A stretch of 26,803 nt of DNA from Saprospiraceae bacterium (lineage in GTDB: Bacteria; Bacteroidota; Bacteroidia; Chitinophagales; Saprospiraceae): contig JBIPOY010000001.1 of assembly GCA_044378705.1 (NCBI GenBank), positions 1 to 26,803 on the forward strand, in the 5' to 3' direction. Made by a program: the position numbers and the translations under genes. A model generated the notes under the pieces. It was not told the origin of the DNA, searched no databases, and worked only from the letters and a program-made list of their open reading frames with translations. This document shows, in pieces, positions 6,263 to 17,466 of the stretch; the first letter of the stretch is position 1; every line of letters starts with the position of its first letter.

Positions 6263-6324
6263 CTTTTTTAAAACACATGGGGATATTCCAACTGTTTGGA
6301 ATATCCCCATGTGTTTTAAAAAAG
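6263..6324. terminator. Long perfect inverted repeat between convergent brx and gldN, likely bidirectional terminator
   Basis: 29-bp perfect arms cttttttaaaacacatggggatattccaa / ttggaatatccccatgtgttttaaaaaag with 4-nt loop ctgt. Confidence 0.7.
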
Positions 6325-11539: not shown

Positions 11540-12337
11540 ATGAAATATTCTAACGGCTTACGAGACATACACCCCAAGGCTCAAATTGGCCAAAACGTAA
11601 CGATTGGTTCTTTTACTACGATAGAAGAAGATGTTGTTATCGGCGATGGCTGCCAGATTGGATCAAATGTTCATATTTTTAATGGCGCACGTATCGGGCA
11701 GGATTGCAAGATTTTCCCAAGCGCCTCTATTAGTGCACCACCTCAGACCAGACAAATACTCGAAGAGGCCGCAATCCTTGAAATTGGTAGCGGTACAGTT
11801 ATTCGGGAGTGTTGCACCCTCAATCGCGGAAATCTTAAGTTTGGTGGCAATACCATTATTGGAGAAAACTGCCTGTTAATGGCCTATGTACACGTAGCGC
11901 ACGACTGTGTAATTGGCCATGATTCTGTTTTGGCAAACAATGTTACGTTGGCCGGCCACATCAACGTGGGAAAATGGGCCACGCTAGGGGGTATGGTTGC
12001 TGTTCACCAATTTGTACGTATCGGCGAACAAACCATGATTGGCGGCGGCTCTCTGGTCAGAAAGGACGTCCCTCCGTTTGTAACTGCAGCGAGAGAGCCT
12101 TTATCATACGCGGGTATCAATACCTTGGGACTCAAACGTCGCGGGTTTGAAAAAGACGAAATGCACCATATTGAAGACATTTACAGAATTCTTTTTGTAC
12201 AAGGTTACAGTATAAACAAGGCGATAAAAATAATTGAGCAAGACCTTCCTCCAACCATTTATCGACAACAAATAACCAGTTTTATTCAAGGTGCAAAACG
12301 CGGATTGATGAAAGGCTTCCGCTCAAAAAACGCATGA
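11540..12337 (+). CDS. lpxA: Acyl-ACP--UDP-N-acetylglucosamine O-acyltransferase
   Basis: Hexapeptide left-handed beta-helix repeats; MAYVHVAHDC, LAGH, VHQF and KDVPP motifs; ATG at 11540 (MKYSNGLRDIHPKA) fits LpxA length better than the track start at 11462. Confidence 0.93.
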   Translation: MKYSNGLRDIHPKAQIGQNVTIGSFTTIEEDVVIGDGCQIGSNVHIFNGARIGQDCKIFPSASISAPPQTRQILEEAAILEIGSGTVIRECCTLNRGNLKFGGNTIIGENCLLMAYVHVAHDCVIGHDSVLANNVTLAGHINVGKWATLGGMVAVHQFVRIGEQTMIGGGSLVRKDVPPFVTAAREPLSYAGINTLGLKRRGFEKDEMHHIEDIYRILFVQGYSINKAIKIIEQDLPPTIYRQQITSFIQGAKRGLMKGFRSKNA

Positions 12338-12954
12338 ACATTACGCTAAAGAATATTGGCAAACGATATCGTCTCGATTGGGTTTTCAAGGGCATTGATT
12401 TCAACTTTGAACAACGGGGGCGATACGCAATTGTTGGCTCAAACGGTTCCGGAAAATCTACACTTCTAAAAGTCCTTTCCGGGCACCTTAGTCCTTCAAA
12501 AGGTAGTATTACTTTTAGCCATTTTGATAAAATTATTTCGGAAGATCATATTTATCAACAGGTGAGTTATGCCGCTCCATACATCGACCTCATAGAAGAA
12601 CTCACATTGGAGGAGGCCATCGGGTTTCATCAAAACATAAAACCCCTAATTTCCGGTATTACGGCGGTTAAATTGCTGGATATACTTGCTCTTCCCAAGG
12701 CTCAAAGAAAAGAGATCAGACATTTCTCTTCCGGCATGAAACAACGGGTGAAACTAGCCCTTGCCATTTGCTCCGATACGCCCATACTTCTCCTTGATGA
12801 ACCCTCCACCAACCTTGACCAACAAGGGATCGAATGGTACAAAGCCCTCGTAAAAGAGTTTTCTGCCAATAGACTCACCATCATTGCTTCCAATGATCCG
12901 CACGATATTTCTTTTTGTCAATCGCAATTGAATATATTGGATTATAAAAAATAG
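12334..12954 (+). CDS. Stand-alone ABC ATP-binding protein
   Basis: Walker A GSNGSGKST, signature FSSGMKQR, Walker B LLLDEP; overlaps the lpxA stop (ATGA). Confidence 0.92.
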   Translation: MNITLKNIGKRYRLDWVFKGIDFNFEQRGRYAIVGSNGSGKSTLLKVLSGHLSPSKGSITFSHFDKIISEDHIYQQVSYAAPYIDLIEELTLEEAIGFHQNIKPLISGITAVKLLDILALPKAQRKEIRHFSSGMKQRVKLALAICSDTPILLLDEPSTNLDQQGIEWYKALVKEFSANRLTIIASNDPHDISFCQSQLNILDYKK

Positions 12955-12969
12955 CCCAACTTCTTCCAC

Positions 12970-13035
12970 TGAGTGTTTACGAGAAACCCGTTATTGTTCC
13001 ACGTGGAACAATAACGGGTTTCTCGTAAACACTCA
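12970..13035. repeat. Perfect 66-bp palindrome with no loop, centred on parS
   Basis: tgagtgtttacgagaaacccgttattgttccac|gtggaacaataacgggtttctcgtaaacactca; all 33 pairs checked. Confidence 0.95.
12995..13010. promoter_or_regulatory. parS: parS centromere-like ParB binding site
   Basis: TGTTCCACGTGGAACA is a perfectly symmetric match to the widespread chromosomal parS consensus. Confidence 0.85.
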
Positions 13036-13140: not shown

Positions 13141-14766
13141 CTACAGGCGCGTAATGATAACCACAACCCTTCGGTTTAACGCACGCAGTGCGTCGGTAGA
13201 GTTGTCATTCAATGGCGACTTGGGGCCTTTCCCCAACACAGAAATACGCCCATCCGAAATTCCTCTTTTTACCAAAAATGATTTTATTGCCTCCGCCCGC
13301 GACTCCGACAAACGAATCAGGTCTTCTTCCTTTCCCTGATTGTCGGTGTATCCCACAATTTGAATGGCAATAGACGGGTTTTTTGCGAGGGTCAAAAACA
13401 AATGATCCAATGATGAAAATGAACTTTCTAAAATCGTTGCGGTGGATTGTTTAAAAAATATTGGCTGAAGCTCAATTTTAGTATCTACAAGGAGCGGGTC
13501 AAGGTATAGATCGATGTATTGTTCCCTAAAATAATAGTAATCCCTCCTATATAATAATTGCTCCACCTCACCGGCAAAACCAGGAAAATTTGCGACCATT
13601 TCAACCCCAACCCCTTTGGGGATTTTAAGGTGAAACAAACCATCCGTCGTGGTAAATTGATTGTTTTCTCCGTTCGCCATTGCATAATACACATTGGCAC
13701 TTGGTATTAAGGCATGGGTATTGCGGTTGATCACACGCCCAAAGACCTCTATTTCTGTTGCTTGAGGCGGTGCAATTCTTACCCGATATATATCACTGTT
13801 CCCACCCCGTTTAGAAGCAAAATATAAAAATCCTGATGTCATATTAAAATACGGCTGACTGTCGTCATACAGAGAATTAATTGGATCCCGTGCTGGGGTA
13901 GGGGCCGACCAATGGGTCCAAGTACTGTCTAAACGTTGCGATATAAATATGTCGTTCCCACCAATACTCTCTTCCCTGTTGGAAGAAAAATAGAGGGTGG
14001 TATTGTCCTCTGAAAGAAATGGCGTTGTCTCTCTACGAGCCGAGTTTATGGAAAAGCCCATGTGTCGGGGAGCACTCCACTGATGATCACCTTCCCGAAA
14101 ACATACGTATAGATCCATGTCTTTGGAATCAAATCGAACCGCAGACAGAATGAGAATTGACCCATCAAAACTCATGGTAAGACTTACATCAGACGTGATG
14201 GTATAGTAGTCTTTAATTTCAATCGGAGTGGGAAAGCTCCAAACAATACTATCCGCCACACGCAGAACCCGGGAAAAACCCTTCGTCATATCGCCGTTTG
14301 GAAGAAATTGATTCAGTACATAAAAAGCATTGGGATCTGGGGTTATCGTTACCAAACTGTTGGGCAACGCATTGTTCAGTGGATAACCAGGGTGCTGCAC
14401 TGCGGTGAACCCAATAGAGTCGCCAGACGCTATCCAAATATCTTGGTTGAAAGCAGATGCCTCAGGATTATTAATGCTCGTGCCGGCAATCTGAGAATAT
14501 ACCGTTCCCAGTATGGCTCTGTATTGTTCCGGAGTGTGCTTTAACGCCATATCAACACTGTCAATAAACAAGGTGCGATCAAAAATCGGATGTCCAACCC
14601 GCGTAAAATACAAGGTGCGGCCATCTCTACTCGTAACCGGCGTAATCTCCGGTTGAGTAGAATTGATAAAAGGTGGCAGTTTTTCTAAGGTAAAATATTC
14701 CTGTGAAACACCCGTAGGCGCCCAAAGAAGTAACAGCACCGCAAATAAAAACAATTGATTATTCAT
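13141..14766 (-). CDS. OmpA-family peptidoglycan-binding protein with PD40 (WD40-like) beta-propeller repeats, PorE-like architecture
   Basis: Sec signal peptide; PD40-like repeats (INSARRETTPFLSEDNTTLYFSSNR, INSLYDDSQP...LYFASKRGGNSDIY); C-terminal OmpA-like domain IQIVGYTDNQG...LSESRAEAI...NRRV. Confidence 0.9.
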   Translation of the reverse strand: MNNQLFLFAVLLLLWAPTGVSQEYFTLEKLPPFINSTQPEITPVTSRDGRTLYFTRVGHPIFDRTLFIDSVDMALKHTPEQYRAILGTVYSQIAGTSINNPEASAFNQDIWIASGDSIGFTAVQHPGYPLNNALPNSLVTITPDPNAFYVLNQFLPNGDMTKGFSRVLRVADSIVWSFPTPIEIKDYYTITSDVSLTMSFDGSILILSAVRFDSKDMDLYVCFREGDHQWSAPRHMGFSINSARRETTPFLSEDNTTLYFSSNREESIGGNDIFISQRLDSTWTHWSAPTPARDPINSLYDDSQPYFNMTSGFLYFASKRGGNSDIYRVRIAPPQATEIEVFGRVINRNTHALIPSANVYYAMANGENNQFTTTDGLFHLKIPKGVGVEMVANFPGFAGEVEQLLYRRDYYYFREQYIDLYLDPLLVDTKIELQPIFFKQSTATILESSFSSLDHLFLTLAKNPSIAIQIVGYTDNQGKEEDLIRLSESRAEAIKSFLVKRGISDGRISVLGKGPKSPLNDNSTDALRALNRRVVVIITRL

Positions 14767-17421: not shown

Positions 17422-17466
17422 AAAAGAGGGGTGATGTAGGAGCGCTTCCTACATCACCCCTCTTTT
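17422..17466. terminator. Bidirectional terminator between convergent GH2 and RND genes
   Basis: 20-bp perfect arms aaaagaggggtgatgtagga / tcctacatcacccctctttt with a 5-nt loop; T tracts on both strands. Confidence 0.85.

What the first reader, a model, noticed from the sequence alone, without database searches (positions are those of the whole stretch)
12970..13035. parS site at the exact centre of a perfect 66-bp loop-less palindrome
Seen: TGTTCCACGTGGAACA (12995-13010) is extended by 25 perfectly complementary bases on each side. No T-tract flanks it on either strand, although it lies between convergent genes, so it is not a standard intrinsic terminator. Established: ParB needs only the 16-bp site; long uninterrupted palindromes can extrude cruciforms and are usually unstable; protelomerase targets are palindromes of similar length. 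Inference: the arms are selected for, or actively regenerated, giving a composite element such as a cruciform-capable centromere, a second protein's site, or a ParB-dependent or hairpin terminator.
Basis: partly seen in the sequence, partly recalled or inferred. Interest (0 to 1): 0.75.

Follow-up and report, generated by a model that had tools for sequence, protein, structure and literature searches.

The report
Centromere site inside a terminator-like palindrome
The only chromosome-partition (parS) site of this uncultured lake bacterium sits at the tip of a real, perfect 66-bp palindrome that looks like the two-way transcription stop signals found elsewhere in the genome; related species repeatedly build different, equally perfect palindromes around the same site.

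Summary
Window 12970-13035 is a perfect 33+33 bp loop-less palindrome centred on TGTTCCACGTGGAACA (12995-13010). Independent lake metagenomes carry it unchanged, so it is not an assembly artefact.

It is the only canonical parS in this 91%-complete Saprospiraceae MAG, which encodes parA-parB on another contig. Its position just 3' of an OmpA/PD40 gene is conserved across the family.

Among 104 distinct parS sites in relatives, 19 have perfect arms of 16-33 bp, against about 0.01 expected by chance. The arm sequences differ, and close relatives differ by mirrored changes.

All 19 lie downstream of a gene end. Their arms show a G/C block followed by a T-rich stretch. In this window an inner GC-closed hairpin (12987-13018) is followed by TTTCTCGT on both strands. 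The genome's other convergent gene pairs carry the same layered perfect hairpins.

Best reading (about 0.5): parS forms the apex of a bidirectional intrinsic terminator, with arms made and kept perfect by template switching.

Main rival (about 0.27): palindrome growth nucleated by parS, with no function of its own.

No protelomerase gene and no conserved second protein site were found. Earlier notes of this scan report parS inside variable palindromes in other phyla.

The parts
12970..13035 (.). Perfect 66-bp loop-less palindrome (33+33). Single copy in the genome.
   Evidence: Confirmed in independent metagenomes. The RNA fold is -56 to -59 kcal/mol on either strand, z about -12.
12995..13010 (.). 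parS core TGTTCCACGTGGAACA. It is the only canonical parS (0-1 mismatch) in the 3.46-Mb, 91%-complete assembly.
   Evidence: parA-parB are present on contig C41. The site's position is conserved 3' of the OmpA/PD40 gene in relatives.
12987..13018 (.). Inner GC-closed hairpin: CCCG, TTAT, parS, ATAA, CGGG. It gives a 14-bp stem with an ACGU loop in RNA and is the proposed terminator stem for both directions.
   Evidence: Read directly from the sequence. The layered design matches the genome's other bidirectional hairpins.
13019..13026 (+). T-rich tract TTTCTCGT directly 3' of the inner stem, for transcripts of the ABC gene.
   Evidence: In the position profile of extended arms in relatives, T is enriched at +9 to +13 from the core.
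12979..12986 (-). Mirror tract, which reads TTTCTCGT on the minus strand, for transcripts of the OmpA/PD40 gene.
   Evidence: by symmetry.
13018..13024 (+). GTTTCTC, one mismatch from the parS half-site heptamer GTTTCAC. Its mirror GAGAAAC lies at 12981-12987.
   Evidence: GTTYCAC is recurrent at +7 to +12 outward of parS in relatives (22 occurrences against 6 for the inverted control; under 1 expected).
12334..12954 (+). ABC transporter ATPase gene. Its stop codon lies 15 nt before the palindrome.
13141..14766 (-). OmpA/PD40 (TolB-like beta-propeller plus OmpA domain) gene. Its stop codon lies 105 nt from the palindrome, with no other stable hairpin in between.

Best explanation
This is a composite element with three layers. 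(1) The central 16 bp is the chromosome's ParB-loading centromere, parS; this rests on homology and conservation. (2) The surrounding arms turn the site into the apex of a bidirectional intrinsic terminator for the convergent ABC-ATPase and OmpA/PD40 genes. RNA polymerase coming from either side transcribes through parS. The GC-closed inner hairpin (12987-13018) then folds while the polymerase sits on UUUCUCGU, and the transcript is released. The outer 9-17 bp only lengthen the 3' stem. This layer is inferred. (3) The arms arise, and stay perfectly Watson-Crick, through intrastrand template switching nucleated by the palindromic parS. That process copies one flank in inverted orientation and mirrors later mutations. 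This layer is inferred from the pattern of variation.
For: parS identity:
- It is the sole canonical site in the genome.
- ParA and a ParB with ParB_N and HTH_ParB domains are present.
- Relatives carry 1-3 sites, against 0 for the reversed control pattern.
- The sites lie at an orthologous position 3' of the OmpA/PD40 gene across Saprospiraceae.

Arms are not chance and are maintained:
- Nineteen of 104 distinct sites have perfect arms of at least 16 bp, against about 0.01 expected.
- Arm sequences differ between species.
- L037 and L038 differ by one mirrored pair, and L043 and L087 by several mirrored changes, although their flanks are about 85-90% identical.

Terminator reading:
- All 18 extended sites that could be classified lie downstream of a gene end: convergent 8 of 23, tandem 10 of 55, divergent 0 of 5, genic 0 of 14.
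- The outward profile of extended arms is A/T at +1-2, G/C-rich at +3-8 and T-rich at +9-13.
- In L037 and L038 the 50-bp palindrome fills essentially the whole gap between the two convergent stop codons.
- No other stable hairpin exists in this window's 186-bp intergenic region.
- In G000, perfect hairpins of at least 12 bp occur in 9.6% of convergent intergenic regions, 3.2% of tandem and 1.7% of divergent.
- The 19 convergent hairpins of at least 16 bp mostly share one layered design: outer extension, A/T tract, GC core, AT-rich apex.
- In unrelated phyla, extended parS sites often carry classic A-run and T-run flanks, for example a Chitinophaga site with 24-bp arms.

Template switching:
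- Arms are perfect and end abruptly; the X-drop length equals the perfect length.
- Arm lengths fall into two groups, 8-14 and 16-33 bp.
- In two-site species the palindrome extends exactly up to the neighbouring parS.
- A half-site that follows parS on one side in two-site species appears on both sides in the single-site clade.
- Template-switch correction of imperfect inverted repeats to perfect ones is documented (PMC5941160, PMC7202029).
Against: - There is no RNA 3'-end data.
- The T-tract is weak (TTTCTCGT) and lies inside the palindrome.
- Four or five of about 13 arm families have no convincing T-tract.
- Many orthologous OmpA/PD40 genes have no strong hairpin at their 3' end, so a terminator there is not universally needed.
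- Arms are just as perfect in tandem contexts, where a bidirectional requirement cannot explain strict Watson-Crick symmetry.
- Related species are not independent samples, and the divergent class is small (n=5).
- Intergenic parS sites across bacteria show a general excess of palindromic extension.
Confidence: 0.5

Rival explanations
1. The arms are a non-adaptive by-product. The 16-bp perfect parS palindrome forms a hairpin in single-stranded DNA during replication and nucleates template switching. This repeatedly copies a flank in inverted orientation and mirrors later mutations. The long palindrome is tolerated in intergenic DNA but has no function of its own; only the 16-bp parS is functional.
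For: - Arms are perfect with abrupt ends, and arm lengths fall into two groups.
- Turnover is high: the OmpA/PD40 tree needs at least 10 gains or losses among 58 rows.
- Arms are perfect in tandem contexts too.
- Intergenic parS sites across phyla show an excess of extension: 42% have arms of at least 10 bp, against 14% of genic sites.
- SbcD_C was not detected in G000 or in 37 of the 40 relatives searched.
- Published support exists for preferential correction of inverted repeats to perfect ones (PMC5941160).
- Earlier scan notes report variable palindromes around arrayed parS sites, which cannot all be terminators.
Against: - Extended arms have a terminator-like composition (G/C block, then T-rich) that non-extended flanks lack.
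- In some species the palindrome is the entire gap between convergent stop codons.
- The design matches the genome's other gene-end hairpins.
- Mirrored differences have accumulated over species-level divergence without a single decayed pair.
Confidence: 0.27
2. The arms act at the DNA level in partition. They could provide flanking ParB half-sites on both sides of parS, or a cruciform or hairpin-capable structure that modulates ParB loading or marks the centromere.
For: A GTTYCAC half-site heptamer is enriched at +7 to +12 from parS in this family and lies inside both arms in the window's clade. The palindrome has zero spacer.
Against: - Apart from the heptamer, arm sequences are not conserved.
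- In this window the heptamer is degenerate (GTTTCTC).
- Heptamer spacing varies from +7 to +12.
- Most orthologous parS sites (about 80%) have no extended arms, so the arms are dispensable for partition.
- Extrusion of a cruciform would destroy the duplex 16-bp site that a ParB dimer needs, and the centre CCACGTGG is GC-rich, which disfavours extrusion (established knowledge).
Confidence: 0.12
3. The palindrome is the target of a second enzyme (protelomerase, recombinase or transposase), a copy of a mobile palindromic repeat, or an assembly artefact.
For: Its length is similar to protelomerase targets. Contigs of some relatives break exactly at the site.
Against: - No ResT/TelK catalytic domain was found in the 91%-complete genome.
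- Unique chromosomal genes continue on both sides, and the context is conserved.
- The arm sequence is single-copy in the genome.
- No Rfam family reaches its threshold.
- Three independent metagenomes carry the identical palindrome.
Confidence: 0.03

Closest known systems
Chromosomal parS centromere of the ParABS system (Bacillus subtilis Spo0J / Caulobacter ParB type; review PMC7333895)
   Same: It has the canonical 16-bp palindrome, a cognate parA-parB operon, one to a few copies per genome, and a position conserved among relatives.
   Different: It is embedded in a perfect 66-bp palindrome, is the only site in the genome, is not next to parAB (different contig), and lies between convergent non-par genes. 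Proximity to the origin is not shown.
Bidirectional intrinsic (Rho-independent) terminators between convergent genes
   Same: It is a GC-closed hairpin followed by a T-rich tract on both strands, placed 15 and 105 nt after two convergent stop codons. It has the same layered architecture as 15 or more other perfect hairpins at convergent junctions in this genome.
   Different: The apex is a protein-binding centromere site instead of an arbitrary loop. The stem is far longer (31 bp in RNA) than usual. The U-tract is weak and lies inside the pairing. Termination has not been shown experimentally.
Quasipalindrome correction and palindrome extension by template switching (PMC5941160, PMC7202029; perfect hairpins arising de novo, PMC10710096)
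   Same: Arms are perfect with abrupt ends, changes between close relatives are mirrored, and gain and loss are repeated.
   Different: Here the nucleus is a functional protein-binding palindrome. The mechanism is inferred from comparative patterns and was not observed.
Protelomerase (TelN/TelK/ResT) target palindromes
   Same: A perfect palindrome of comparable length (about 56 bp for telRL).
   Different: No resolvase gene was found, the locus is internal to a chromosome with unique flanks, and the centre is a canonical parS.

Membership tests
Chromosomal parS (ParB-binding centromere) | Match to the 16-bp consensus TGTTNCACGTGNAACA | tested here: met
   Exact match at 12995-13010. The same 16-mer is found across many phyla.
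Chromosomal parS (ParB-binding centromere) | A cognate ParB (ParB_N plus HTH) and ParA are encoded in the same genome | tested here: met
   Contig C41 carries a ParA-type ATPase (259 aa) followed by ParB with ParB_N and HTH_ParB domains; ParB is cut by the contig end.
Chromosomal parS (ParB-binding centromere) | Rare in the genome and conserved at an orthologous position in relatives | tested here: met
   There is 1 site in G000. Thirty-two of 41 genomes (G000 plus 40 relatives) hold 1-3 sites, against 0 for the reversed control. The sites lie 3' of the OmpA/PD40 ortholog across Saprospiraceae.
Chromosomal parS (ParB-binding centromere) | Origin-proximal location | tested here: inconclusive
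   In G009, parS is 345 kb from dnaA on the same contig. In the closed genome G034 (another family), parS is 1.67 Mb from dnaA. There is no GC-skew switch in the window. oriC itself was not located.
Chromosomal parS (ParB-binding centromere) | Specific ParB binding and CTP-dependent loading | not testable with these tools
   Needs EMSA, BLI or ChIP-seq.
Intrinsic bidirectional terminator | A stable GC-containing RNA hairpin downstream of the stop codon(s) of convergent genes | tested here: met
   Fold energy is -56 to -59 kcal/mol on both strands, z about -12. The hairpin lies 15 nt after the ABC stop and 105 nt after the OmpA/PD40 stop. It is the only stable hairpin in the gap.
Intrinsic bidirectional terminator | A U-rich tract immediately 3' of the stem on each transcribed strand | tested here: inconclusive
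   TTTCTCGT (5 T of 8) follows the inner stem on both strands but is itself paired in the full palindrome. There is no T-run outside the 66 bp. Relatives' extended arms are T-rich at +9 to +13, and several have T5-T8 runs right after the stem.
Intrinsic bidirectional terminator | Transcript 3' ends map to the U-tract | not testable with these tools
   No listed RNA run was shown to hold the stretch, and the single read-laying run was used for the DNA check.
Protelomerase target (telRL-type) | A telomere resolvase gene in the replicon, and hairpin ends or a linear replicon | tested here: not met
   No ResT-TelK_cat match in G000, which is 91% complete. Unique genes flank both sides.
Repeated extragenic palindrome / MITE family | Multiple copies of the same element in the genome | tested here: not met
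   The arm sequence is single-copy. The best other match is 18 of 19 nt at E=0.03.

The most novel reading that the evidence does not exclude
Palindromic parS sites may be general hot spots for template-switch-driven palindrome growth across bacteria, and lineages such as Saprospiraceae may repeatedly co-opt the resulting hairpins. Centromere function and transcription termination would then be physically coupled. For example, ParB occupancy could gate termination of the two convergent genes, or the terminator could stop transcription from sweeping ParB clamps away from their only loading site.
Probability: 0.15. Interest if true: 0.7.

Novelty: new variant of a known kind. Interest (0 to 1): 0.45.

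Why it matters
parS is treated as a bare 16-bp protein-binding site. In one bacterial family its orthologous copy has been rebuilt again and again into long, perfect palindromes that differ in sequence, at positions and with a composition typical of transcription terminators.

If the terminator reading is right, a single DNA element serves both chromosome segregation and transcript-end formation. That raises a testable question of how ParB loading and RNA polymerase traffic interact at the only centromere.

If the neutral reading is right, this is an unusually clean natural record of template-switch palindrome growth and concerted evolution of palindrome arms, nucleated by a functional site.

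There is also a practical point. Such palindromes break short-read assemblies exactly at the centromere.

Tried and rejected
- **Assembly artefact:** rejected by independent metagenome contigs.
- **Protelomerase target:** no ResT/TelK domain found.
- **Known RNA family:** only sub-threshold, miRNA-like generic hairpin hits.
- **Repeated or mobile element:** the arm is single-copy.
- **A separate terminator for the OmpA/PD40 gene upstream of the palindrome:** none, z = +1.1.
- **The tool's simple terminator scan:** it does not flag the site, because it scores the tail after the full stem and counts at most 20 pairs.
- **Origin proximity:** inconclusive.
- **Literature:** searches for parS inside hairpins, terminators or palindromes, and for ParB roadblock or termination, found no description of this arrangement. 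Livny et al. 2007 (PMC2168934) is not held.
- **RNA evidence:** not obtainable.
- **A G:U versus A:C mismatch-asymmetry test for RNA-level selection:** considered and dropped, because the arms contain no mismatches to classify.

Full report
**1. Observation**

Window 12970-13035 is a perfect palindrome: arms of 33 nt, 100% complementary, no spacer. Its central 16 bp (12995-13010) is TGTTCCACGTGGAACA, a perfect-palindrome version of the chromosomal parS consensus.

It lies in a 186-bp gap between convergent ORFs. One is an ABC-transporter ATPase (12334-12954, +). The other is an OmpA/PD40 protein (13141-14766, -).

The window is a whole contig of a 534-contig, 3.46-Mb MAG that is 91% complete and 47% GC. 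Titles of related records place it in Saprospiraceae/Lewinellaceae, Bacteroidota.

An assembly artefact is excluded. Logan contigs from three other lake or freshwater metagenomes, one of them a slightly different strain, reproduce 12970-13035 without any difference. The flank contigs end 30 nt into each arm, and a central unitig sits at about twice the flank depth. That is the expected signature of a real palindrome at k=31.

**2. Is it a real parS?**

- It is the only site in the assembly with 0-1 mismatch to the consensus, and no truncated copy sits at a contig end.
- The genome encodes a ParA-type ATPase followed by a ParB with ParB_N and HTH_ParB domains on contig C41.
- Of the 41 genomes searched (G000 plus 40 relatives), 32 hold 1-3 exact sites, while the reversed control pattern is found in none.
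- The sites are orthologous. In most genus members, and in 77 Saprospiraceae loci retrieved with the OmpA/PD40 protein, parS lies just 3' of that gene. It appears either as one site, as two sites 39-49 bp apart, or about 1 kb further on.
- Origin proximity could not be established.

**3.

Among 104 distinct parS sites from relatives, the perfect-arm lengths are:

| Arm length (bp) | Sites |
|---|---|
| 3 (asymmetric cores) | 12 |
| 8 | 36 |
| 9 | 14 |
| 10 | 10 |
| 11 | 7 |
| 12 | 4 |
| 13-14 | 2 |
| 16-33 | 19 |

About 0.01 sites with arms of 16 bp or more are expected by chance.

The long arms have different sequences, in about 13 distinguishable families. They end abruptly: the X-drop length equals the perfect length.

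Close relatives differ by mirrored changes. L037 and L038 differ by one compensated pair. L043 and L087 differ by several, although their flanks are about 85-90% identical.

On a tree of the OmpA/PD40 orthologs, the extended state needs at least 10 gains or losses among 58 rows. It is concentrated in the window's clade, where 11 of 21 rows are extended.

A broad bacterial sample of the same 16-mer gives 5 of 161 sites with arms of at least 16 bp. The longest, 24 bp, is in a Chitinophaga genome and has A5/T5 flanks. Intergenic sites in that sample are extended far more often than genic ones: 42% against 14% have arms of at least 10 bp. So the arms are maintained or regenerated, and the phenomenon is strongest in this family but not confined to it.

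**4. What the arms look like**

All 18 extended sites that could be classified lie downstream of a gene end:

| Context | Extended / total |
|---|---|
| Convergent | 8 / 23 |
| Tandem | 10 / 55 |
| Divergent | 0 / 5 |
| Genic | 0 / 14 |

Read outward from the core, extended arms are A/T at +1-2, G/C-rich at +3-8 and T-rich at +9-13. Non-extended flanks lack this profile.

In this window the layers are:
- outer extension, 12970-78;
- ACGAGAAA, 12979-86;
- CCCG, 12987-90;
- TTAT, parS, ATAA;
- CGGG, 13015-18;
- TTTCTCGT, 13019-26;
- outer extension, 13027-35.

A 14-bp GC-closed RNA stem with an ACGU loop is therefore followed by a U-rich tract (5 of 8) on both strands.

No other stable hairpin exists in the gap. 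In L037 and L038 the 50-bp palindrome fills essentially the whole space between the two convergent stop codons.

Genome-wide in G000, perfect hairpins of at least 12 bp occur in 9.6% of convergent intergenic regions, 3.2% of tandem and 1.7% of divergent. The 19 convergent examples with stems of at least 16 bp mostly share one layered design: outer extension, A/T tract, GC core and AT-rich apex. One of them is another zero-loop palindrome. Two such hairpins lie in this very window, at 6263-6324 and 17422-17466. The parS palindrome is the longest member of this class.

**5. How the arms arise**

Several features point to discrete inverted copying of one flank, not to stepwise point mutation:
- The arms are perfect and their ends are abrupt.
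- Arm lengths fall into two groups, 8-14 and 16-33 bp.
- Differences between close relatives are mirrored.
- In two-site species (L047, L087/L012) the palindrome reaches exactly up to the neighbouring parS.
- A parS half-site heptamer, GTTTCAC, follows the second parS at +9 in two-site species. In the single-site clade it lies inside both arms at +7 to +12. In this window it is degenerate, GTTTCTC at 13018-24.

This is the pattern expected from intrastrand template switching at a palindrome, the mechanism proposed for preferential correction of imperfect inverted repeats to perfect ones (PMC5941160; PMC7202029). SbcD_C was not detected in G000 or in 37 of the 40 relatives searched. That may relax selection against long palindromes, although the domain search is not proof of absence.

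**6. Verdict on mechanism**

Best reading (about 0.5): parS is the ParB loading site, and the arms make it the apex of a bidirectional intrinsic terminator. The arms are created and kept perfect by template switching.

- Shown: the palindrome, its reality, the uniqueness and conservation of parS, the recurrence and covariation of arms, their gene-end location and composition, and the resemblance to the genome's other gene-end hairpins.
- Inferred: ParB binding, termination, and template switching.

Main rival (about 0.27): the arms are a tolerated mutational by-product with no function. Support comes from the equally perfect arms in tandem contexts, the high turnover, the general excess of extension at intergenic parS sites, and the fact that many orthologous OmpA/PD40 genes lack any strong 3' hairpin.

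A DNA-level role in partition, through half-sites or a cruciform, gets about 0.12. About 80% of orthologous sites lack extended arms, arm sequences are not conserved, and extrusion would destroy the duplex parS. A protelomerase or other enzyme target, a mobile repeat, or an artefact together get about 0.03.

**7. Comparison with known systems, and novelty**

The core is an ordinary member of the chromosomal parS family (review PMC7333895). The arms work like, and look like, the bidirectional intrinsic terminators of this genome, but termination is untested and the U-tract criterion is only half met.

I found no paper in the searchable library that describes parS embedded in long covarying palindromes or in terminators.

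Earlier AI notes of this scan describe parS inside variable palindromes in uncultured Bacilli, Peptococcaceae, an alphaproteobacterium and a sponge symbiont. One of them argued against terminators for a 16-site array. I treat these as leads. My own broad sample independently shows the general tendency.

I class the finding as a new variant of a known kind, with moderate interest of 0.45. It is a real, non-random, recurrent feature with a plausible ordinary function. It has added value as a natural record of palindrome growth, and as a testable link between centromere loading and transcription termination.

Noticed in passing
window 6263-6324 and 17422-17466: Two more long perfect hairpins (29-bp stem with 4-nt loop; 20-bp stem with 5-nt loop) carry paired A-run and T-run flanks at gene ends. 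They look like bidirectional terminators of the same layered design as the parS palindrome. Genome-wide there are 146 perfect hairpins with stems of at least 12 bp, up to 33 bp.
   Followed up: partly
L012:1540, L036:4674, L040:4668, L041:4786, L043:4625, L104:796, L108:4560 (relatives); window 13018-13024 and 12981-12987: A parS half-site heptamer, GTTTCAC, is conserved 8 nt beyond one side of parS in two-site Saprospiraceae. In the single-site clade it appears mirrored on both sides, inside the arms. It could be an auxiliary ParB half-site, or simply the conserved T-tract of a terminator.
   Followed up: partly
L032 (contig end at 4746), L026 (parS at 102 of its contig): Contigs of close relatives end exactly at or within the parS palindrome. 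L032, the closest relative found (83% aa identity in OmpA/PD40), stops at the last base of the core. Short-read assemblies therefore tend to break at these centromere palindromes, and arm lengths there are unknown.
   Followed up: no
G000 and 40 relatives (whole genomes): The SbcD_C domain (hairpin nuclease SbcCD) was found in only 3 of 41 genomes of this group, and not in G000. Its absence could relax selection against long palindromes. The Pfam control rings in only 5 of 14 model genomes, so sensitivity is limited.
   Followed up: partly
L109-L228 (broad bacterial sample): Across phyla, intergenic copies of the exact parS 16-mer are palindromically extended much more often than genic ones: 42% against 14% have arms of at least 10 bp. 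Several have classic T-runs right after the extended stem (Chitinophaga L177:6119, Shewanella L185:7194, L148, L166, L221).
   Followed up: partly
L053:4660-4693: In one relative the two parS sites (arms of 10 bp) are 163 bp apart. A separate 34-bp zero-loop perfect palindrome with a TTTTTAAAAA centre lies between them, so here the terminator-like palindrome and parS are separate elements.
   Followed up: no
G000 contig C41 versus window; G009, G005, G034: parS is not next to parAB in this group. In G000, G009 and G005 parB lies on a different contig from parS. In G009, parS is 345 kb from dnaA. In the closed genome G034, parS is 1.67 Mb from dnaA and about 2.4 Mb from parB.
   Followed up: partly
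G000 contig C463:303-321: An 18-of-19 match to the outer right arm (GGTTTCTCGTAAATACTCA) lies at the 3' end of another gene, without a partner arm. E=0.03, so it is probably chance.
   Followed up: no
both sides of parS cores (relatives): The base immediately flanking the 16-bp core is A or T in about 90% of sites and almost never G (read outward). This suggests the effective ParB site, or its mutational context, extends to 18 bp.
   Followed up: no
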